From a virus (lineage: Duplodnaviria > Heunggongvirae > Uroviricota > Caudoviricetes): a stretch of 15,612 bases of DNA. The stretch lies in the IMG/VR virus record IMGVR_UViG_2778261247_000017; one strand, written 5' to 3'. The position numbers and the translations under genes are program-made. Every line of letters starts with the position of its first letter. Within the stretch, counting starts at the first letter, position 1. The notes beneath the pieces were generated by a model that worked only from the letters and a program-made list of their open reading frames with translations, did not search any database and was not told the DNA's origin. Shown one piece after another: positions 7,668 through 15,612 of this stretch.

Positions 7668-9482
7668 TTAATTTTTGCCATCGTCATTTGTGACCGATGC
7701 ACATGAGGGCATCCAGTCTTCTGAATCCTCTGTCAGTATCACGTTTGAACGCAAGCCATGCTTCGTTTTCCGTTTCATATACTCCCTGCCGTATTCCGCC
7801 ATTGCCCCTGGCATATCCTTACCGAAGCGTGTCAGTGTTACGGGCTTACCGAATCCGTGTGCCCTCATATACGCCAGATAGGCGTGATAGAGATACCTGC
7901 GCGGGCTGAACGGAATAATTTCAGCATTACCCACTAACAGGCCATCGCACATTACCGACGACATGAGATAGCCGCAGAAGTCCACCAGCGAATCGCCCTC
8001 GCGTTTTATCACTAGGGCTTCTTCTGATTTCTGCTGCTCATATAGCAGGCGTTTAGCTTCGTCCTGGTCAGAAAAGCGTGTAAGCAGGTGGCGAATCACT
8101 ACCGCCAGCTCTCCTTCTATTTTTTCAGCCAGCATAGGGTCACGTTCGTTCTCCGGTACAACTTCCGAAAAATTGAATATTACCCGACGACGTGATATCC
8201 CACCGCTGCGGTCACTGAATGACATGGCGTTATTGTTCACCGCCAGCACGACCGCCTGAATGCGTGTTGAGTAGGGGGCTTTATGTTTCGGGTCGATTGC
8301 CACCTTATCACCGCCTGTAATGGCCTTAATTCCTGCACCATCACCAGCGTAACGGGTCATATCCGGCATAATAATCAGCGAAAAGCCAACCACTAACGCG
8401 CGTTCCCTGGCATCTTCCAGCGCCTTCATGCTTGCCGATACCGTGTTGGCCTTACCCGCCAGCATAGTGCAAATCTCCGCCATTACGCTTTTACCGCTTC
8501 CACCCGGCCCCGTTACCTCAAGAAATAACTGCCAGTCGTACCGATTCGCCAGCACCATGAATAACGCCGCCAGTACGCGATCCGCTTTGCGTTCATTCTC
8601 TGCCACCGAACGGCGCAACCATTTCCAGAAATTCGGCGCATGCGTTGCCAGCGTTTCCCCCTCTGCTGGCGGGTTGAACGGTAATTCACTGGCAATTAAC
8701 AACCAGTCGTTTTTGTCGTGCTCCCGAAAATCGCCTGTCCGGGTATCAAAAACACCGTTACTGAATCCAATCAGGTTACGGGCGGTATTCCCCATTACGG
8801 GCAAACTTAACTTCATGGTATCGACCGCCGATTTGATGGCGTTCTGCGAATAGCTGATTTCCGCATCAATAAAAATCTGCGCCATAGCCCGCTGTAACTC
8901 TTTATCCTGTACCGGCTCCCATACAACACCGTTGTAGTGGTGAACGGTGTCAGAATCCGCATTGATTGCCAGTTCACCGCCATAATGTGCCAGGAGAACT
9001 TCGCCGCGCTGGCTTGCTCCCATCTGGTTAAGTGCCAGTGGTGTCGCGCTGTCTTCTGTTTTTTTCTTTGCCGGAAACCGGATAATCAGTCCGTCATCAA
9101 TGTTTTTACGCTCACGGGCAAGGTATTCACGCCAGTTTTCACACTTCTGGCTGTGCATGCCATCAGGGTAATAATTCGCATTCTGTATACTTGCCGCCGC
9201 CAGCTTCTGACCAATTGCCTTAACCATTACAGGATCTAACTGTCCGGCTCTGAATATGCGCGCGGATGTGCGCCCATCAGGCACTATTTGCAGATTTCCG
9301 ATCTCTTTCAGTTGTTCATCAGCCAGCACAACAGGTGGCTCATTATCTCCAGCCATACGCGCATCGTGCTCCTGCCATTGTTTCGCGTGTGCCCAGGCAT
9401 CACTACCCGCGAAAATAATTACCTCTGTGTCTTTGTGTTTTATTCCGCGTGGCTGTTTTTTTACGTTCGGTGCCAGTTTCAT
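7668..9482 (-). CDS. replication initiator: P4-alpha-like primase / SF3 helicase with C-terminal DNA-binding region
   Basis: 604 aa; ATG at 9480-9482 preceded by GGGGGG. Walker A GPGGSGKS in mid-protein. Overall layout matches phage/plasmid P4-family primase C-terminal proteins. Followed by cognate-looking iterons. Confidence 0.85.
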   Translation of the reverse strand: MKLAPNVKKQPRGIKHKDTEVIIFAGSDAWAHAKQWQEHDARMAGDNEPPVVLADEQLKEIGNLQIVPDGRTSARIFRAGQLDPVMVKAIGQKLAAASIQNANYYPDGMHSQKCENWREYLARERKNIDDGLIIRFPAKKKTEDSATPLALNQMGASQRGEVLLAHYGGELAINADSDTVHHYNGVVWEPVQDKELQRAMAQIFIDAEISYSQNAIKSAVDTMKLSLPVMGNTARNLIGFSNGVFDTRTGDFREHDKNDWLLIASELPFNPPAEGETLATHAPNFWKWLRRSVAENERKADRVLAALFMVLANRYDWQLFLEVTGPGGSGKSVMAEICTMLAGKANTVSASMKALEDARERALVVGFSLIIMPDMTRYAGDGAGIKAITGGDKVAIDPKHKAPYSTRIQAVVLAVNNNAMSFSDRSGGISRRRVIFNFSEVVPENERDPMLAEKIEGELAVVIRHLLTRFSDQDEAKRLLYEQQKSEEALVIKREGDSLVDFCGYLMSSVMCDGLLVGNAEIIPFSPRRYLYHAYLAYMRAHGFGKPVTLTRFGKDMPGAMAEYGREYMKRKTKHGLRSNVILTEDSEDWMPSCASVTNDDGKN

Positions 9483-9721
9483 TTTTTCCCCCCTGCAACC
9501 AGCATTTCACGGATTTTGCGGATATAGCTTGCTGCACGTTTTTGATTTACGGCTTTATAATGGTCCACCAGCGTAAAATCACGGCGGTAGGTGATATTGC
9601 CTGGCGTAACGTGACGAATAACCACTCGTCCCCCACGTCTGGTGTCGCGGTAAATATCTCCGAGTCTGATTTCAGGCCGAGAGAGACCGCTGGCAGTAAA
9701 GCCAGAATTTTTCTTTTTCAT
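9479..9721 (-). CDS. small basic hypothetical protein (80 aa)
   Basis: ATG at 9719-9721; its stop overlaps the primase start (ATGA), so it is translationally coupled. Confidence 0.5.
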   Translation of the reverse strand: MKKKNSGFTASGLSRPEIRLGDIYRDTRRGGRVVIRHVTPGNITYRRDFTLVDHYKAVNQKRAASYIRKIREMLVAGGKK

Positions 9722-9725
9722 GGTT

Positions 9726-9926
9726 TTATTTTCCTGTCAGCAGTTCCGGTTTTATTTCCGCACGAATATAAAGTTCAGAAAAAAATTCAGGAGAACCAAC
9801 AATCTCATTACTTTTCAGTCGGCATTGTGATTTCACTTTCCCTTTATCCAGGTAAACCAGTACGCGTCCGGTGAAATCATCTGGCACATTAAGCACTACG
9901 GGTACATGCGCTTCATGATTATGCAT
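9726..9926 (-). CDS. small hypothetical protein (66 aa) carrying one copy of an FTG(R/Q)xLV...G.V motif
   Basis: ATG at 9924-9926 preceded by GGAGGA with an 8-nt spacer; 8-nt overlap ATGCATAA with the upstream gene. Paralogous to the N-terminus of the 121-aa protein at 10145-10510. Confidence 0.5.
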   Translation of the reverse strand: MHNHEAHVPVVLNVPDDFTGRVLVYLDKGKVKSQCRLKSNEIVGSPEFFSELYIRAEIKPELLTGK

Positions 9927-10152
9927 GGCTTACATCCTCCGTGAATTTTCTTCTGTAACGCGTCTCTGCCACATATTCCGCATAGTCCGACGCAATACTA
10001 AGAATCATTTCACCCTCTGACTTGTAGCCACTGGTATTGATAAGAAAATATGCAGCTTTCATCATGTCAGCAACGCTCAACAATGCGCCCGCTGCATCTT
10101 CCGGTGCGCCATCAAATTCCCGTTTCAGGGAATTAAAACGATCATCACGCAT
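9919..10152 (-). CDS. small acidic hypothetical protein (77 aa)
   Basis: ATG at 10150-10152 preceded by GGGGGG; 8-nt overlap ATGCGTGA with the upstream gene. Confidence 0.5.
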   Translation of the reverse strand: MRDDRFNSLKREFDGAPEDAAGALLSVADMMKAAYFLINTSGYKSEGEMILSIASDYAEYVAETRYRRKFTEDVSHA

Positions 10153-10510
10153 GTTTCCCCCCCTGAATGACCTGATAACCGCAACTGGTCAGCAACTCGA
10201 TAAATTCCGGCAGTGTACCGAAACAGCAATCATCACGCAGCCGTTCGCAGGATACCTCGACGCCGTTTTCGTAGTGACTCACCATACGTCCGGTAAAATG
10301 CAGATCATCATCGTGATGGCTCGTTGACGGCTTAATCAGTCGCACACGTTCCGCCAGTTCCAGCAATGCTTCAACGCTTCCGGCAATTGCACCATCCGGC
10401 AGGTGATAATTACGCACTATGCGCCCGTTCTCCACATTGACCAGCAACTGCCCGGTAAATTTCTCGTCAAACTGAATGCTGTTAAGGTCAGAAATTGACA
10501 GGTTATGCAT
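10145..10510 (-). CDS. hypothetical protein (121 aa) with two internal copies of the FTG(R/Q)xLV...G.V motif
   Basis: Preferred ATG at 10508-10510 (MHNLSISD), preceded by AGGAGGTG; the ORF-track start at 10528 lacks an SD. 8-nt overlap ATGCATAA with the upstream gene. Confidence 0.55.
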   Translation of the reverse strand: MHNLSISDLNSIQFDEKFTGQLLVNVENGRIVRNYHLPDGAIAGSVEALLELAERVRLIKPSTSHHDDDLHFTGRMVSHYENGVEVSCERLRDDCCFGTLPEFIELLTSCGYQVIQGGKHA

Positions 10511-10727
10511 GGTGCACCTCCTGCACATCAGCCATGATAATTTTTCCGGCCTTATCCAGTGCCTGATCGGCTTTTAGCTGCACAAATGCTAAATAATGGA
10601 AGATGCATTCTGATTCTCTGGCTGCGTGTTTATGCGCCACACCAGCGATAGCAGAAATCTCAATAAGTGAATCCATCAGCGTTTTGATAGCGTCTACCGC
10701 TGCATCAGGCCATGTTGCATTACACAT
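10503..10727 (-). CDS. small hypothetical protein (74 aa)
   Basis: ATG at 10725-10727 preceded by AGGAGGTG; 8-nt overlap ATGTGTAA with the upstream gene. Confidence 0.5.
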   Translation of the reverse strand: MCNATWPDAAVDAIKTLMDSLIEISAIAGVAHKHAARESECIFHYLAFVQLKADQALDKAGKIIMADVQEVHHA

Positions 10728-11085
10728 GCTCCACCTCCTGGCGAATACGGGCGGCGAATACCATCACGCAGCCATCAGGAGATTGCTGGCGTGCTTCCTG
10801 TTCGCTGGTGGCCTCGATGTGAATTACACGCGGTTGTGCTGTGCTCAGGGCGATAAAACGCCATATAAAATTGTTTTCGCATTTCTGAATAAACAGCGTG
10901 TTTTCTTCGCGCCCTTTCCATGTTGCCGAGATATAGCCCATGTCATTGAGCATCTCGCAGGCATCAACCAGCGTATCGGCGGCTATGTGTACAGTGTTTT
11001 TACCGTCAGCGATGCAATCACGGTGCACCGCCAGGAAGGTGTATATAAATTTAGGGTGAGTTTGGGTATGCTGTGTTCCAGCCAT
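10720..11085 (-). CDS. hypothetical protein (121 aa), first gene of the leftward replication operon
   Basis: ATG at 11083-11085 (MAGTQHTQTH) preceded by GAGGTAACG. Protein-like translation. This is the C-terminal, believable part of the 512-codon stop-free frame. Confidence 0.6.
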   Translation of the reverse strand: MAGTQHTQTHPKFIYTFLAVHRDCIADGKNTVHIAADTLVDACEMLNDMGYISATWKGREENTLFIQKCENNFIWRFIALSTAQPRVIHIEATSEQEARQQSPDGCVMVFAARIRQEVEHV

Positions 11086-11174
11086 AATCGTTACCTCGTT
11101 TAACGGTTTGGTTAGACGCCCCGCTACTGCCGCAAACAGTTCGGGGCGTTGTCGTTTACATCCTCTTACCGAGG

Positions 11175-11250
11175 TGTGATTTAAATTAAATTTAACTGAA
11201 TCACAGGTCAAGTATTTTTTGTGATTCTTTTTTGTGTATACTGAATCACA
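11175..11250. promoter_or_regulatory. divergent control region with two TGTGATT-N17-AATCACA inverted-repeat operators and a TATACT -10 candidate
   Basis: IR1 is TGTGATT (11175-11181) paired with AATCACA (11199-11205). IR2 is TGTGATT (11220-11226) paired with AATCACA (11244-11250), identical 17-bp spacing. TATACT at 11237-11242 overlaps IR2, 31 bp before the ATG at 11273. Confidence 0.5.
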
Positions 11251-11272
11251 TCTTTTGTTTAGGAGAATGCAC

Positions 11273-11578
11273 ATGGCAAAAAACACTATCAACGACAAAT
11301 CAAAACAGATTTCAATTCGTATCCCACATGATGCTTTTGAAGGCATGGAATCCGTAAAACTGGACGGCGAAAGCAACGCCGGATTCATCGTAACCGCTAT
11401 GCGCGGTGAGATCGCCCGCCGCCAGGCAGAAGGAAGAGGAGAAAATCCCTTGGTTTCTTCGCTCGATGCACTGGCGCAGGTGGAAAAAATCGGAGTCAAA
11501 GCTGCCGAGGAGATCGGGCAACTCATCACCGTCGCGCGTGAAGAACTCCAGCGCCGCAAGGCCAAAGAACAGGAGTAA
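11273..11578 (+). CDS. small regulator-like protein (101 aa), possibly the element's repressor
   Basis: ATG at 11273 preceded by AGGAGA with a 6-nt spacer. Helical, charged translation with an N-terminal KQISIRIPHDAFEGM segment that could be a ribbon-helix-helix strand. Divergent from the replication operon and flanked by the operators. Confidence 0.6.
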   Translation: MAKNTINDKSKQISIRIPHDAFEGMESVKLDGESNAGFIVTAMRGEIARRQAEGRGENPLVSSLDALAQVEKIGVKAAEEIGQLITVAREELQRRKAKEQE

Positions 11579-11635
11579 CCATCACCAGCGCCGTGGTGTG
11601 AGGAACTACGGTGCATCGTTTTACAGGGCAGCGCC

Positions 11636-11836
11636 ATGACCAACAAAGAATCAACCAATACACCATCACCGGCACGGAAAAGACAGCGCAGAAAGATAGC
11701 GTACGAGTATGAGTCAGACAGATTCGCGCCCTGTGCGTTTATCCTTGAGAAATTCCTTAAAGAGTACAGGCGCACAAAAATGGGGTCGCATACCTGGAAA
11801 ACATCGCGGCATGGCAATGTTAAAGAGCAGGAATAG
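11636..11836 (+). CDS. possible small basic protein (66 aa)
   Basis: In the same frame as 11273-11578, separated by a single TAA and 19 sense codons. Weak SD. Translation is plausible but the call is uncertain. Confidence 0.3.
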   Translation: MTNKESTNTPSPARKRQRRKIAYEYESDRFAPCAFILEKFLKEYRRTKMGSHTWKTSRHGNVKEQE

Positions 11837-11865
11837 CCCACCAGCAAGCCAGCACACTGATCACA

Positions 11866-12258
11866 TTGCCCACCAGCCGCAAATCTGGCATTGTTGGTGA
11901 TGCGTTCAAGTGTGTAGCTTTCCCACTGGTGGCCCTCTGCGGTCGCCTTTGTTTTATCCAGAACGAAATCAGACATCAGATTGGTCAGCACCTGGCGACC
12001 TGACAAAATCGCATCAGTCGCGCCACCAGCAAAATTTTTTGCTCTCCGGACAGCGTGACCAACGGCATTTTGCAGCAAAATATTCTGCATTTCTGGTGTG
12101 CTGTAGTAACGGTGATCAGCGCCTTCACTCTGTGCGACCACAACGCTATAATCTGCCTCGTAGACAGTAAGCAATATGGCGCAGTAGGCTATTCGTTCAC
12201 AAAGGCGCTCCGGCAACGGGGCGCTTTCTCTTTTTGTAACGGTCAGAACGTTACACAT
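11866..12258 (-). CDS. hypothetical protein; N-terminal about 130 codons are convincing, C-terminus unresolved
   Basis: ATG at 12256-12258 preceded by GGAGGA with an 8-nt spacer; 8-nt overlap ATGTGTAA with the antirepressor stop. The frame has no stop before 10720, so the 11866 end is my estimate of where the protein-like sequence ends. A Cys cluster C-x2-C-x8-C-x5-C follows. Confidence 0.4.
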
Positions 12259-13051
12259 GGCTGTTTTCCTCCATGCGACGGGCTAACCAACGCTGCGAAA
12301 GACGAATTAATTCAGCTTTCCGCTGGTGGTAGTCCTGGCCTAACTCAATCAGCGTGATATTGCTCTGCTCAAGGTAAGAAAGGTGCTCAAGCTGCAACGT
12401 GCTCATGTGGTCGCGTGGTTCGCCTGTGATGCCGTTCGCCTGCGCCCACTGTTTTGCAGTCATGCCACCCAGCACGATACGCGCCAGCATATTGGCTTCC
12501 GTGGTGTAGTGGTGCTGTAGAGTGTTTTTACCCAGTTCAGCCCGGTACGCCTCCAGCGCGGCACACATTGGCTTAAAGTAGCTGGCAACTGTGATACGGG
12601 CTTTCAGTTCCCGGCGTAACGCTGCGGAACGAACAGGCGCAACCTTGTGTAGCTCCTCCTCGCATTTGATAAAGTACTGGCGAACGGCGCGGCCCTGTTC
12701 GGTACGTTCGACCATCGCCAGTTCTTTCGCCATGTTCACGGTGGTGATGTACTCAAGAGCTGTTTGCTGGCGAGATTTTGCGCTCACCGGATCGGGTCGG
12801 CTCAAATATTCAACAACCTCATAATCCACGCCTTCCGTGAAGCCGTATTCTTCAATGCGCCCCTTGATCCACGAACGGAAAACGCGCCCTACACCTAACG
12901 CCTTATGCAACGCTCTGGCGCTAACAATATTGGTTTCACGCCCGCCAATAACGCCGGAAATAACCGGGATAATTTCGCCGAAATTTTGCAGATTCTGGTT
13001 TTCAGGCCGAACGAAGCCCTGCCCCTGTACGGGCGTTTTTCGCAGTTTCAT
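12251..13051 (-). CDS. phage antirepressor (AntA N-terminal / KilA-C-type)
   Basis: ATG at 13049-13051 preceded by AGGAG; 266 aa. N-terminal ARALHKALGVGRVFRSWIKGRIEEYGFTEGVDYEV is typical of the AntA/AntB antirepressor N-domain. Confidence 0.75.
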   Translation of the reverse strand: MKLRKTPVQGQGFVRPENQNLQNFGEIIPVISGVIGGRETNIVSARALHKALGVGRVFRSWIKGRIEEYGFTEGVDYEVVEYLSRPDPVSAKSRQQTALEYITTVNMAKELAMVERTEQGRAVRQYFIKCEEELHKVAPVRSAALRRELKARITVASYFKPMCAALEAYRAELGKNTLQHHYTTEANMLARIVLGGMTAKQWAQANGITGEPRDHMSTLQLEHLSYLEQSNITLIELGQDYHQRKAELIRLSQRWLARRMEENSHV

Positions 13052-13128: not shown

Positions 13129-13326
13129 TCAGGTAGCTGTTCCACGTGATTCCGCAATACGCTGATTAATCCACTCGTCAATTTCACTCTCAACGAAAGC
13201 AATAGCTCGCGAGCCAATTTTAACTGATGCAGGAAATTTGCCTTGCCCCATAAGGCGATAAATCCATGCCTTGCTATATCCAGTTCTACGCTGAACTTCC
13301 GTTAAACGAATAAGAGAGTTTGCCAT
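13129..13326 (-). CDS. alpA: AlpA-family phage transcriptional regulator / excisionase-like (Vis-like)
   Basis: 65 aa; ATG at 13324-13326 preceded by AAGGTGA. Motif LIRLTEVQRRTGYSKAWIYRLMGQGKFP is the AlpA/Vis HTH signature. Confidence 0.9.
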   Translation of the reverse strand: MANSLIRLTEVQRRTGYSKAWIYRLMGQGKFPASVKIGSRAIAFVESEIDEWINQRIAESRGTAT

Positions 13327-13585: not shown

Positions 13586-14299
13586 TTAACTTTTTGTTTT
13601 TTTTGGTCTTCTACCAATACGCTTCAGATGTTCAGGCCTTAAAATCAGATTCACAGCCCTAGCAACATTAGAACCCGCCCCCCTTTTTTTCAAATATTCA
13701 AGTACCTCATGCTCTGTCGGAGCCGTCTGTGGGTCATCTGGGTCATACGTCGACCATAGTTCCCTTATAGCATCCTGCACATACTCCAACCCATCACTCT
13801 TATGCCCATAAGTACACAAATACTCGTCAGGATTAATTACCTGATGAGATGATTCAATGATTGCTGGCGGATTAACTTCCTTAACAGGTATAGGGCGAGG
13901 GCATCTCGCAAAATCAACGCTCTCATTTTTTATCCACTCATATAAAGAATGGCGACTAATTAAAGTTTTATCCTTGCTTATCTCATATGCACGATCGGTC
14001 AGTTGTGCTGATGTCAGACGTTTGTACTCAATATCACAAACATTTCCCCAATTATCGTACTCAACTATTTCAGAGGTACATTCAACAGGAGTTAAGACAC
14101 CACGACGGATGGCTGTTACCATTCCATTAGCCAACCCCCATGCCATTTTCCAACGTTCATGTTTATTATCTCTGACATGTTCAAGAGTAGGGTAATCATA
14201 AGGATCAATTCCGGCCAACAATAAAGCGGCCTGGGTGATAGAAAACTCCTGTACTGTTCGCCAGTGGGATAAGTCAGGAATGTTTTCCACAATTGGCAT
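13586..14299 (-). CDS. hypothetical protein (237 aa), unknown family, between integrase and alpA
   Basis: The ORF-track start is TTG at 14314; ATG at 14297-14299 follows GGGGGAG. Protein-like acidic translation. Confidence 0.7.
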   Translation of the reverse strand: MPIVENIPDLSHWRTVQEFSITQAALLLAGIDPYDYPTLEHVRDNKHERWKMAWGLANGMVTAIRRGVLTPVECTSEIVEYDNWGNVCDIEYKRLTSAQLTDRAYEISKDKTLISRHSLYEWIKNESVDFARCPRPIPVKEVNPPAIIESSHQVINPDEYLCTYGHKSDGLEYVQDAIRELWSTYDPDDPQTAPTEHEVLEYLKKRGAGSNVARAVNLILRPEHLKRIGRRPKKTKS

Positions 14300-14397
14300 A
14301 TTCTCCCCCTTCAAGCGGTCTAATGTTAAGGCCGAGCCAGCTCTGTTTGCATCAGCCTTTTTAGGTGCTCAAAGTCTACTACTGTATACTCAACCAG

Positions 14398-15612
14398 TCA
14401 CCCGCATTTTCCGAACTCACCATGCACCACATTTCCGCCATGCTCGAGCGAATCCATATAGTCGGCATACCACTGGAGCATCTCTCGGCGACCATCCAGA
14501 TATTGCGCATGGTTGTATGTGCCACGAATTGAGTTTTTATCGACGTGTGCGAGCTGTGTCTCTATCCACGCGGTGTTATAGCCCTGCTCATGCAAAATGG
14601 TGCTCATGGTGTGCCGGAATCCATGACCAGTAACCTTTCCGTTATAGCCGATGCGTTTAAATACTTGGTTTATGCTAGCCTCGCTCATTGTTTTCCTTGG
14701 ATCATTACGGCCGGGAAACATAAGCGGATAATTGCCAGTTAATTCTTTAATCTGCCCAATAAGCGAAAGAGCCTGCTTAGACAAAGGCACCACATGAGGG
14801 CGACGCATTTTCATCCGTGAAGCAGGTATCTCCCAGATAGCCTTGTTGAGATCGATTTCATCCCATAATGCACCGCGCAGTTCGCCAGTCCGCAAACCGG
14901 TGATAATCAGTAGACGAGCCGCCATAACAACCAATGCACTTCCTGAGTAACTGGACAATGCCTTGAAAAAATCAGGTAATTCTTTGGCTGTGAGGAAAGG
15001 ATAATGATTAGATTCATGACCTTGCATCGCGCTGGTGAGATCCGGTGCAGGGTTATACTCAGCACGTCCAGTGACAATTGCATAGCGGAAAACTTCCCCG
15101 CATCGCTGCCTCACTTTTTTGGCTTTTTCGGTAGCACCGCGCCCCTCGATGCGCCGCAGCACATTCAGCAGTTCAAGTGGTTTGATTTCGGTGATTGGTT
15201 TTTTGCCAATGTAAGGGAACACATCTTTATTGAAGGCTTCGAGGATGTCTGAAGCATAACCAGCAGACCATTTTTTTAATTTGCTGCAGTGCCACTCAAG
15301 GGCAATATCTTTGAAGGTGTTGTTTAACTGCGTTTTCCGGGCAATCTTTTCCTCTCGTTTCGCTTCCATCGGATCGATACCCCCAGCGATACCCCTTTTA
15401 GCTTCTTCACGTTTTGCACGAGCATCAGCCAAGGTAACTTCAGGATACACACCTAGTGCTAACAGCTTCTCTTTACCAGCTACACGATACTTGAAGCGCC
15501 AATATTTTCCTCCACTAGGTTTTACCAAGAGATACAGACCACCACCATCAGCCAGCTTGTAAGCCTTCTCTTTTGGCTTGGCAGTGTCTATTTGACGGGC
15601 ATTGAGTTTCAC
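14398..15612 (-). CDS. int: P4-family tyrosine integrase (site-specific recombinase)
   Basis: 404 codons from a GTG at the window edge (the true start may lie just outside). N-terminal arm-binding-type region (LYLLVKPSGGKYWRFKYR) and a C-terminal catalytic region with conserved residues of this family (GLRTGELRGALWDEID, HGFRHT, LAHVD, GTYNHAQY). Confidence 0.9.
   Translation of the reverse strand: MKLNARQIDTAKPKEKAYKLADGGGLYLLVKPSGGKYWRFKYRVAGKEKLLALGVYPEVTLADARAKREEAKRGIAGGIDPMEAKREEKIARKTQLNNTFKDIALEWHCSKLKKWSAGYASDILEAFNKDVFPYIGKKPITEIKPLELLNVLRRIEGRGATEKAKKVRQRCGEVFRYAIVTGRAEYNPAPDLTSAMQGHESNHYPFLTAKELPDFFKALSSYSGSALVVMAARLLIITGLRTGELRGALWDEIDLNKAIWEIPASRMKMRRPHVVPLSKQALSLIGQIKELTGNYPLMFPGRNDPRKTMSEASINQVFKRIGYNGKVTGHGFRHTMSTILHEQGYNTAWIETQLAHVDKNSIRGTYNHAQYLDGRREMLQWYADYMDSLEHGGNVVHGEFGKCG

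What the first reader, a model, noticed from the sequence alone, without database searches (positions are those of the whole stretch)
9726..10510. Paralogous small proteins sharing a triplicated motif
The 66-aa and 121-aa proteins both start MHN and share FTG(R/Q)xLV...(N/K)G.V...L. The motif occurs once in the short protein (FTGRVLVYLDKGKVK) and twice in the long one (FTGQLLVNVENGRIV and FTGRMVSHYENGVEV), with similar tails (PEFFSEL versus PEFIELL). Their start contexts are also identical (CCATGCATAA), indicating tandem duplication within the operon.
Basis: seen in the sequence. Interest (0 to 1): 0.4.

Follow-up and report, generated by a model that had tools for sequence, protein, structure and literature searches.

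The report
Satellite-encoded FsoA/Rem-type antirepressor cassettes
The two small proteins are real, old paralogues carrying three copies of one ~55-residue domain whose relatives (Salmonella FsoA, E. coli Rem) switch prophages on by inactivating their repressors, so this phage satellite probably carries tools to wake its helper prophage.

Summary
The 66-aa protein (9726-9926, minus strand) and the 121-aa protein (10145-10510, minus strand) share one domain, present once and twice. Support comes from BLASTP (E 1e-6, 4e-4, 5e-6) and an independent profile, phrog_340 (1.7e-20; 2e-29 with two stretches).

The domain belongs to the small-antirepressor family of prophages. Fels-1 FsoA, which I identified from published primer sequences, matches my family profile at E 5.8e-27. 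It matches each of the three units by BLASTP at 4e-8 to 5e-6. E. coli Rem, the antirepressor of DicA, matches at 95% hhalign probability.

The window is a PICI-type satellite at tRNA-Thr in E. coli APEC IMT5155. The genes sit in its early operon between an Icd-like gene and DUF4222 plus primase.

The "tandem duplication within the operon" reading is only partly right:
- The units are 28-33% identical, no closer to each other than to family members elsewhere.
- The two-unit architecture is conserved in proteins below 50% identity.
- The shared CCATGCATAA start is an operon-wide 8-nt stop/start overlap, also used by unrelated neighbouring genes.

Unit number varies from 0 to 3 among related islands, through cassette loss and in-frame recombination.

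Antirepressor function and its target are inferred, not shown. I rate this a new variant of a known kind, of moderate interest.

The parts
9726..9926 (-). 66-aa protein: one FsoA/Rem-type antirepressor-like unit
   Evidence: Translation. phrog_340 at E 1.7e-20. BLASTP to FsoA at E 4e-8. AF2 model with a 66-sequence MSA has pLDDT 87.5: beta-hairpin at residues 21-37, helix at 46-56, short helix at 60-64.
10145..10510 (-). 121-aa protein: two tandem units of the same domain
   Evidence: Translation. phrog_340 at E 2e-29 with two stretches. My family HMM finds two domains, aa 1-59 and aa 67-118. BLASTP to FsoA at E 2e-6 (unit 2) and 5e-6 (unit 1).
10334..10510 (-). Unit 1 of the 121-aa protein (aa 1-59; motif FTGQLLVNVENGRIV at nt 10415-10459)
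   Evidence: HMM domain 1. Closest to unit 1 of the divergent two-unit proteins P0117, P0118 and P0119.
10157..10312 (-). Unit 2 of the 121-aa protein (aa 67-118; motif FTGRMVSHYENGVEV at nt 10253-10297)
   Evidence: HMM domain 2. Closest to unit 2 of P0118 and P0117. 44% identical to FsoA over the 50-column BLASTP alignment.
10503..10727 (-). 74-aa cassette gene upstream of the 121-aa gene, predicted helical from its sequence only
   Evidence: phrog_5146 and phrog_2512. No Pfam family. By eye, homologous segments appear fused to FsoA-like domains in P0187, P0199, P0154 and P0067.
9919..10152 (-). 77-aa cassette gene between the two paralogues, predicted helical from its sequence only
   Evidence: phrog_24341 and phrog_2512. 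No BLASTP similarity to the 74-aa protein. Found fused to a 74-aa-like protein in L017.
10720..10941 (-). Icd-like gene, first gene of the operon
   Evidence: NCBIfam phage_ICD_like at E 8e-23. RefSeq CDS.
9479..9721 (-). DUF4222 gene, the conserved downstream neighbour of the units
   Evidence: Pfam DUF4222 at E 3.9e-8. The same adjacency is seen.
7668..9482 (-). D5_N/P4-type primase-helicase, the satellite replicase and last gene of the module
   Evidence: Pfam D5_N, Pox_D5 and DUF5906. TIGR01613.
9919..9926 (-). 8-nt stop/start overlap ATGCATAA. The same junction type is at 10145-10152, 10503-10510 and 10720-10727.
   Evidence: four consecutive overlaps ATGNNTRA, each after a GGAGG-like or G-rich purine stretch.

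Best explanation
The 66-aa and 121-aa proteins carry one and two copies of the ~55-residue domain of the small prophage antirepressors: FsoA of Fels-1, Rem of Qin, and more distantly GftA/GfoA of the Gifsy phages. Those proteins bind short, non-cleavable CI/DicA-type repressors and take them off the DNA.

Here the genes lie in the early operon of a PICI-type phage satellite: int, AlpA, AntA, then Icd-like, small cassettes, DUF4222 and primase. The satellite is integrated at tRNA-Thr.

The most likely mechanism is as follows. When the operon is switched on, the proteins bind and inactivate repressors of resident lambdoid (helper) prophages or cryptic prophages. This derepresses them and supplies helper functions, as P4 epsilon does to the P2 repressor.

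The three diverged units would then give several repressor specificities. The two-unit protein may act as a covalently linked dimer or as a dual-specificity binder.

Shown: homology, domain count, operon position, and cassette variability. Inferred: repressor binding, the identity of the targets, and the dimer mimicry.
For: Homology to experimentally characterised antirepressors:
- Fels-1 STM0898.2n (78 aa) is FsoA. Primers le154 (ATGAACTCACAGCAAATGATGA = MNSQQMM) and le162 (...EAGIRFEEISNVG fused to FLAG) in Table S1 of PMC3121763 match its two ends.
- It hits my family HMM at E 5.8e-27 over the full length. It hits the three window units by BLASTP at 4e-8, 2e-6 and 5e-6.
- E. coli K-12 Rem hits at E 1.9e-8 by hmmsearch and at 95% probability, E 2.2e-8, by hhalign.
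- Pfam PF27490 'Rem' is precomputed on family members P0022, P0023, P0152 and P0202.

Published function of those relatives:
- Rem derepresses the DicA-controlled promoter dicBp 165-fold (PMC10448788).
- FsoA inactivates the Gifsy-2 repressor GtgR of a different prophage and sits in an early-left operon under phage repressor control, not LexA control (PMC3121763).
- GfoR-GfoA elutes as an apparent A2B2 complex.

Context in the window and elsewhere:
- The window is E. coli APEC IMT5155, an island at tRNA-Thr next to proA with int, AlpA, AntA and primase.
- Divergent family members occupy the same slot in other satellites.
- The two-unit architecture is conserved in other lineages.
- Unit number varies from 0 to 3, and in-frame recombinants exist (P0046, P0070, P0034, P0041). 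This is the pattern expected of interchangeable specificity cassettes.
Against: No binding or induction data exist for these proteins, so function rests on sequence homology of about 30-44% identity.

The link to GftA is weak: hhalign E 6e-4 and probability 28%, and no hmmsearch hit at E below 1e-2.

The local Pfam-A copy gives no hit, and the precomputed Rem hits are flagged weak or faint.

No LexA box lies near the operon, unlike gfoA and gftA.

In Gram-negative PICIs, island expression is reported to follow helper induction, through AlpA (PMC11773190). An antirepressor would then be useful mainly after transfer into a new lysogen.

No candidate target repressor was identified.

The predicted fold has no solved or viral-model counterpart, so structure adds no functional support.

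The C-terminus of the 66-aa protein departs from the family consensus AGY-V-PP.
Confidence: 0.6

Rival explanations
1. The units are accessory factors of satellite replication. They would work with the DUF4222 protein and the replicase, for example in origin or helicase loading, and not on repressors.
For: The units always lie immediately upstream of DUF4222 plus a replicase. This adjacency persists although the replicase type changes: D5_N/P4 primase in the window, AAA_25 RepA-type helicase in L002, L010 and L011, and DUF927 in L019. One library protein, P0169, joins a DnaG-type zinc finger to the domain.
Against: Island L017 has no unit but an intact DUF4222 and RepA helicase. EcCIMP1, a verified mobile PICI, has none. 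The characterised homologues FsoA and Rem act on repressors and lie in prophages; no Pfam family, DUF4222 included, was found for the gene just downstream of fsoA in Fels-1, and no DUF4222 is annotated next to rem in Qin. P0169 may be a gene-calling artefact.
Confidence: 0.12
2. The proteins act on other host or phage targets, such as cell division, anti-defence or interference with the helper. They would use the FsoA-like fold only as a generic small binding module.
For: They are co-transcribed with an Icd-like cell-division inhibitor. The hairpin part resembles MORN-variant (YwqK-like) repeats, a generic beta-hairpin binding motif; the long repeat proteins P0189, P0191, P0196 and P0200 hit the profile through it. 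The units are strongly diversified.
Against: The repeat-protein hits cover only about 20 residues of hairpin. Full-length homology is to FsoA and Rem. There is no PADLOC hit. No member of the family has a documented non-repressor target in the papers found.
Confidence: 0.2
3. The shared motif is chance similarity or a compositional artefact between unrelated small ORFs.
For: The proteins are short, pairwise identity is only about 30%, and the local Pfam-A and NCBIfam copies have no hit.
Against: There are three independent significant pairwise alignments. An independent PHROG profile hits with two stretches. 102 library proteins fall at E below 1e-3. The AF2 model built on the family MSA is confident.
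Confidence: 0.01

Closest known systems
FsoA, the Fels-1 prophage antirepressor (Lemire, Figueroa-Bossi and Bossi 2011, PMC3121763)
   Same: Same domain over its full length: HMM E 5.8e-27 and BLASTP 4e-8 to 5e-6 against each unit. It is a small protein encoded in an early operon outside the immunity region. It is not LexA-controlled. It acts in trans on the repressor of a different element (Gifsy-2 GtgR).
   Different: FsoA is a single 78-aa unit in a complete lambdoid prophage. Here there are three units in two genes, one of them a tandem fusion, in a satellite with no virion genes. The targets are unknown.
Rem of the cryptic prophage Qin, antirepressor of DicA (Ragunathan et al. 2023, PMC10448788); Pfam PF27490 'Rem'
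   Same: The homologous C-terminal unit (hhalign 95%, E 2.2e-8) has the same hairpin-helix pattern: ...VxxG.v....L...EFVTSL.AL.E...KAGF.
   Different: Rem has an extra N-terminal hairpin, making about 1.5 units. It lies near the late-gene regulator of a cryptic prophage. Identity to the window units is low.
GftA, GfoA and GfhA, the LexA-controlled Gifsy antirepressors
   Same: They are the same functional class, and the authors aligned them with FsoA. GfoA ends ...RRLGYRVTPPSDI, inferred from primer le163, which fits the family C-terminal consensus AGY-V-PP.
   Different: Only weak profile similarity to GftA could be shown here. Those genes follow a dinI homologue and have LexA boxes. No LexA box was found here.
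Epsilon of satellite phage P4, antirepressor of the P2 C repressor (from my own knowledge)
   Same: It is the functional analogy: a satellite-encoded small protein, in the operon upstream of the primase gene, that derepresses the helper prophage.
   Different: No sequence relationship was tested or is claimed. The island lacks genes annotated as P4 sid, delta or psu and has the gene set of a PICI, not a P4-like element.
AntA/BRO-type antirepressors (Pfam AntA)
   Same: One is also encoded in the same island (12251-13051). Chimeras or fusions of ANT or BRO-N domains with the FsoA-like unit exist (P0053, P0144).
   Different: It is an unrelated, much larger domain.

Membership tests
FsoA/Rem small-antirepressor family (PF27490 'Rem'; phrog_340) | Significant sequence homology to an experimentally characterised member | tested here: met
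   FsoA against the family HMM gives E 5.8e-27. BLASTP of FsoA against the 66-aa protein gives 4e-8, and against the two units of the 121-aa protein 2e-6 and 5e-6. Rem gives hhalign 95%, E 2.2e-8.
FsoA/Rem small-antirepressor family (PF27490 'Rem'; phrog_340) | Match to the curated Pfam model above threshold | tested here: inconclusive
   The local Pfam-A copy lacks the model or gives no hit. Precomputed PF27490 hits exist on close homologues (P0022, P0023) but are flagged 'faint', and on P0152 'weak'.
FsoA/Rem small-antirepressor family (PF27490 'Rem'; phrog_340) | Small single-domain protein of about 60-90 aa | tested here: met
   The 66-aa protein meets it. The 121-aa protein does not: it is a tandem of two units, an architecture also seen in P0117-P0119.
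FsoA/Rem small-antirepressor family (PF27490 'Rem'; phrog_340) | Binds a cognate CI/DicA-type repressor and releases it from its operator | not testable with these tools
   This needs pull-down, EMSA or reporter assays. No target repressor was identified.
Gifsy-type LexA-controlled antirepressors (GfoA/GftA) | LexA box upstream and a dinI-linked location | tested here: not met
   No CTGT-N8-ACAG site with up to one mismatch lies near the operon start (10941-11234). The six matches in the window are at chance level. There is no DinI hit.
Gifsy-type LexA-controlled antirepressors (GfoA/GftA) | Sequence homology to GftA | tested here: inconclusive
   hhalign gives E 6e-4 and probability 28%, in the expected register. 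There is no hmmsearch hit at E below 1e-2.
PICI-type phage satellite (context of the genes) | Integrase, AlpA and primase/replicase in one orientation, no virion genes, and a tRNA-adjacent att site | tested here: met
   The integrase is at 14398-15612 (RefSeq tyrosine recombinase). The island lies at tRNA-Thr next to proA. It shares the integrase (92% nt identity) and the site with the verified PICI EcCIMP1.
PICI-type phage satellite (context of the genes) | Induction and packaging by a helper phage | not testable with these tools
   This is shown only for EcCIMP1 (PMC11773190), whose internal modules differ.

The most novel reading that the evidence does not exclude
PICI-type satellites of Enterobacteriaceae carry a hot-swappable array of diversified FsoA/Rem-type antirepressor cassettes, joined by a standard 8-nt stop/start junction. 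The array includes a conserved tandem 'single-chain dimer'. With it, an incoming or activated satellite would actively induce heterologous resident prophages to obtain helpers. The range of cassettes would define the satellite's helper range.
Probability: 0.3. Interest if true: 0.7.

Novelty: new variant of a known kind. Interest (0 to 1): 0.45.

Why it matters
In the papers I read, Gram-negative PICIs are described as responding to helper induction through AlpA. If these genes are active antirepressors, satellites of this type could also trigger induction of helper or bystander prophages, as P4 does with epsilon. That would affect prophage stability, toxin-phage induction and gene transfer in pathogenic E. 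coli.

Part of the Icd-like to DUF4222 stretch is present in 1,532 of 5,426 complete genomes. The match need not include the units.

The variable 0-3 unit array gives a concrete, testable candidate for what sets helper range. The conserved two-unit protein is a natural test of whether these antirepressors work as dimers.

The finding also gives a functional label to genes that RefSeq and phage records list as 'hypothetical protein'.

Tried and rejected
- Pfam-A and NCBIfam scans of the two proteins gave no family.
- PDB sequence searches with single proteins and with the profile gave only spurious hits: designed armadillo repeats, and a 20-residue RNF4 hairpin.
- AF2 on the 121-aa protein without an alignment gave pLDDT 40 and was unusable.
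- tblastn of the 121-aa protein against 50,697 phage records gave no match at E below 0.01. FsoA itself found only 15 records, all annotated as hypothetical.
No systematic taxonomic census was therefore made.
- I tested whether the 74-aa and 77-aa proteins are a second pair of paralogues, which would imply a duplicated two-gene cassette. BLASTP found no similarity, so I rejected the idea. Both match phrog_2512 only because that family contains 74+77 fusions such as the one in L017.
- I tested whether the island is EcCIMP1-like throughout. Only the integrase and the flanks match, so I rejected this.
- The LexA-box search found nothing at the operon start.
- PADLOC gave no defence-system hit for the units.

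Full report
**1. The observation**

Both are annotated CDSs, 'hypothetical protein', in the source genome.

| Gene | Coordinates (minus strand) | Sequence |
|---|---|---|
| 66 aa | 9726-9926 | MHNHEAHVPVVLNVPDDFTGRVLVYLDKGKVKSQCRLKSNEIVGSPEFFSELYIRAEIKPELLTGK |
| 121 aa | 10145-10510 | MHNLSISDLNSIQFDEKFTGQLLVNVENGRIV...HFTGRMVSHYENGVEV...LPEFIELLTSCGYQVIQGGKHA |

The similarity is well beyond chance.
- BLASTP aligns the 66-aa protein separately to the first half (E 1e-6, 33% identity over 61 residues) and to the second half (E 4e-4) of the 121-aa protein.
- The two halves align to each other at E 5e-6.
- An independent profile, phrog_340, hits the short protein at 1.7e-20 and the long one at 2e-29 with two stretches.

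There are therefore three copies of one domain of about 55 residues in two genes.

**2. Where this is**

The window is 100% identical to the E. coli APEC IMT5155 chromosome. The region is an island integrated at tRNA-Thr next to proA.

All of the following genes are on the minus strand, in this order:

| Gene | Coordinates |
|---|---|
| integrase | 14398-15612 |
| 242-aa ORF | 13586-14314 |
| AlpA | 13129-13326 |
| AntA-domain protein | 12251-13051 |
| Icd-like | 10720-10941 |
| 74 aa | 10503-10727 |
| 121 aa | 10145-10510 |
| 77 aa | 9919-10152 |
| 66 aa | 9726-9926 |
| DUF4222 | 9479-9721 |
| D5_N/P4-type primase | 7668-9482 |
| ProQ/FinO, PerC and cargo | downstream |

A short plus-strand pair (YlcI/YnfO-like and a 66-aa ORF, 11273-11836) lies between AntA and the Icd-like gene.

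This is the gene set of a PICI-type satellite. The experimentally verified PICI EcCIMP1 sits at the same tRNA-Thr site (PMC11773190). It shares the integrase at 92% nucleotide identity, but its internal modules differ and it has no copy of the domain.

**3. What the domain is**

A profile search of 1.84 billion cluster representatives found 102 proteins at E below 1e-3.
- Most are 60-90 residues long.
- The consensus is h-x-h-x-V-P-x-x-FTGRvlvyvENGkv-S...L...E-v-tl..F-ELA..AGy-V-pP.

With a 66-sequence alignment, AlphaFold2 gives a confident model of the 66-aa protein (pLDDT 87.5). It has a beta-hairpin at residues 21-37, a helix at 46-56 and a short helix at 60-64. No solved or predicted viral structure resembles it.

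The key lead was the precomputed Pfam label PF27490 'Rem' on some homologues.
- Rem of the cryptic prophage Qin is an experimentally shown antirepressor of DicA. Its ectopic expression raises dicBp 165-fold. It was found by PSI-BLAST starting from the Salmonella antirepressors GfoA and FsoA (PMC10448788).
- K-12 Rem matches my family profile at hhalign probability 95%, E 2.2e-8, and at hmmsearch E 1.9e-8.

The link to FsoA is stronger.
- In Fels-1, one ORF of the early-left operon, STM0898.2n (78 aa), hits the family HMM at E 5.8e-27 over its full length.
- The primers used by Lemire et al. to clone and to FLAG-tag fsoA encode its N-terminus (MNSQQMM) and its C-terminus (EAGIRFEEISNVG). This ORF is therefore FsoA.
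- FsoA aligns by BLASTP to the 66-aa protein (E 4e-8) and to both units of the 121-aa protein (2e-6 and 5e-6; 44% identity to unit 2 over the 50-column alignment).

What is published about FsoA and its relatives (PMC3121763):
- FsoA inactivates GtgR, the repressor of a different prophage, Gifsy-2.
- It is controlled by the Fels-1 repressor and not by LexA.
- The related GfoA and GftA bind their repressors tightly, apparently as A2B2 complexes, and remove them from DNA.

GftA itself shows only weak profile similarity here: E 6e-4, probability 28%, in the expected register.

**4. How old is the triplication, and what does the start context mean?**

In the 43-column core the three units are 28-33% identical to one another. 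That is no more than their median identity to 63 other family members, 30-37%.

Unit 1 scores best against unit 1 of the two-unit proteins P0117, P0118 and P0119, which come from separate 50%-identity clusters. Unit 2 scores best against their unit 2. The internal duplication is therefore old and has been kept as a two-domain architecture. It was not made in this operon.

The shared CCATGCATAA is real but is an operon-wide device. Four consecutive junctions overlap by 8 nt (ATGNNTRA) after a GGAGG-like or G-rich purine stretch:

| Junction | Overlap at |
|---|---|
| Icd-like to 74 aa | 10720-10727 |
| 74 aa to 121 aa | 10503-10510 |
| 121 aa to 77 aa | 10145-10152 |
| 77 aa to 66 aa | 9919-9926 |

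The 74-aa and 77-aa proteins show no BLASTP similarity to each other. Neither gave a hit to the family HMM.

The upstream proteins end in His-Ala-stop or His-Val-stop, and the downstream ones begin MHN, MRD or MCN. Many distant family members also end in HA or HV.

**5. Copy number does vary**

Between the Icd-like gene and DUF4222, related islands carry the following:

| Locus | Genes in order | Units |
|---|---|---|
| window | 74, 121, 77, 66 | 3 |
| L013 | 76, 74, 121, 77, 77' | 2 |
| L014 | 121, 66 | 3 |
| L015 | 121 | 2 |
| L016 | 66 | 1 |
| L011, L012 | 67, 66 | 2 |
| L010 | one chimeric 66 | 1 |
| L017 | 154 (a 74+77 fusion), 77' | 0 |

77' denotes a second, different 77-aa protein.

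Database proteins document in-frame recombination between units.
- P0046 has the head of unit 1 joined to the body of unit 2.
- P0070 has the head of the 121-aa gene joined at the FTGR motif to the body of the 66-aa gene, which deletes everything in between.
- P0034, P0036, P0041 and P0047 carry deletions with other junctions.

153 of 5,426 complete E. coli genomes carry at least 80% of the Icd-like to DUF4222 stretch, and 1,532 carry some part of it.

Divergent members occupy the same slot in a Salmonella satellite and a metagenomic satellite, whichever replicase type follows DUF4222.

**6. Mechanism**

The best-supported reading is that these are satellite-encoded antirepressors of the FsoA/Rem type. 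Once the early operon is expressed, they would bind and inactivate non-cleavable CI/DicA-type repressors of resident prophages. This is functionally analogous to P4 epsilon acting on the P2 repressor (the P4 comparison is from my own knowledge).

- FsoA is a direct precedent for a member of this family acting on a foreign element's repressor.
- The diverged units and their cassette-like turnover fit a set of alternative specificities.
- The tandem protein could mimic the dimer seen in A2B2 complexes.

All of this is inference from homology and context. No target was identified and no LexA box is present. In the PICIs described in PMC11773190, expression follows helper induction, so the benefit would lie mainly in a newly entered lysogen or in co-inducing other prophages.

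Rivals:
- A replication-accessory role, suggested by the constant adjacency to DUF4222 and the replicase. It is weakened by L017 and EcCIMP1, which lack units.
- A different binding target that uses the same small fold.
- Chance similarity, which is excluded.

**7. Verdict**

Interest is moderate, 0.45.

Noticed in passing
window 9919-9926, 10145-10152, 10503-10510, 10720-10727 (minus strand): Four consecutive gene junctions use the same unusual 8-nt stop/start overlap (ATGNNTRA; the upstream protein ends His-Ala/Val-stop) behind a GGAGG-like or G-rich purine stretch. Genes between these junctions come and go among related islands. The junction may therefore serve both as a translational-coupling device and as a recombination point for cassette exchange.
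   Followed up: partly
window 10503-10727 and 9919-10152 (minus strand); L017:1640-2104; proteins P0187, P0199, P0154, P0067: The 74-aa and 77-aa proteins interleaved with the units have no known family. They occur fused to each other (154 aa in L017, phrog_2512). By eye, segments resembling the 74-aa protein are fused to FsoA-like domains in other bacteria. This hints that they work together with the units.
   Followed up: partly
window 12251-13051 (minus strand); proteins P0053, P0144: The same island also encodes a 266-aa AntA/AntB-domain antirepressor-like protein. Database proteins join an AntA or BRO-N-like N-terminus to an FsoA-like unit.
   Followed up: no
window 11273-11578 and 11636-11836 (plus strand): A YlcI/YnfO-family gene and a 66-aa ORF are transcribed divergently from the Icd-like operon, in the position of an immunity or switch region. 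Pfam gives no hit. They may control the operon that holds the units.
   Followed up: partly
window 960-1298 (minus strand) versus 14398-15612 (minus strand): A 112-aa remnant of an integrase N-terminus (Arm DNA-binding domain) near the left end duplicates the start of the island's integrase. This marks a second, decayed island in tandem at tRNA-Thr, next to the MarR and vat genes. EcCIMP1 in strain MP1 has the same arrangement.
   Followed up: partly
window 2153-3645 (minus strand): The cargo at the far end of the island is a DUF4747 protein (297 aa) followed by an overlapping 199-aa ORF that looks hydrophobic by eye. This is the usual location of satellite accessory or defence genes, but PADLOC has no hit.
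   Followed up: partly
window 5625-6439 (minus strand): A ProQ/FinO-domain gene (a 176-aa ORF, but flagged frameshifted in RefSeq) and a PerC-family regulator lie downstream of the primase. The same pair recurs in related Salmonella and E. coli islands (L002, L010).
   Followed up: no
window 10720-12258 (minus strand): A mechanical 512-aa ORF runs through the Icd-like gene and the divergent intergenic region. It is probably not a gene. The RefSeq Icd-like CDS starts at 10941, and only the last ~50 residues match the Icd-like model.
   Followed up: partly
proteins P0189, P0191, P0196, P0200; P0120, P0143: The hairpin half of the domain (FTGxvvxYYENGxvxSxxxY.DG) resembles MORN-variant/YwqK-type repeats. 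Long repeat proteins therefore hit the profile through many short stretches. This is probably motif-level resemblance and not homology of the whole domain.
   Followed up: no
L005:4652-4903 (E. coli K-12 rem): Rem appears to contain an extra N-terminal hairpin (GLYAVCVENGNLVSHYRI) in front of the complete unit, making about 1.5 units. GftA and the second halves of P0129 and P0201 look similar. Partial duplication of the hairpin may be a recurrent theme in the family.
   Followed up: partly
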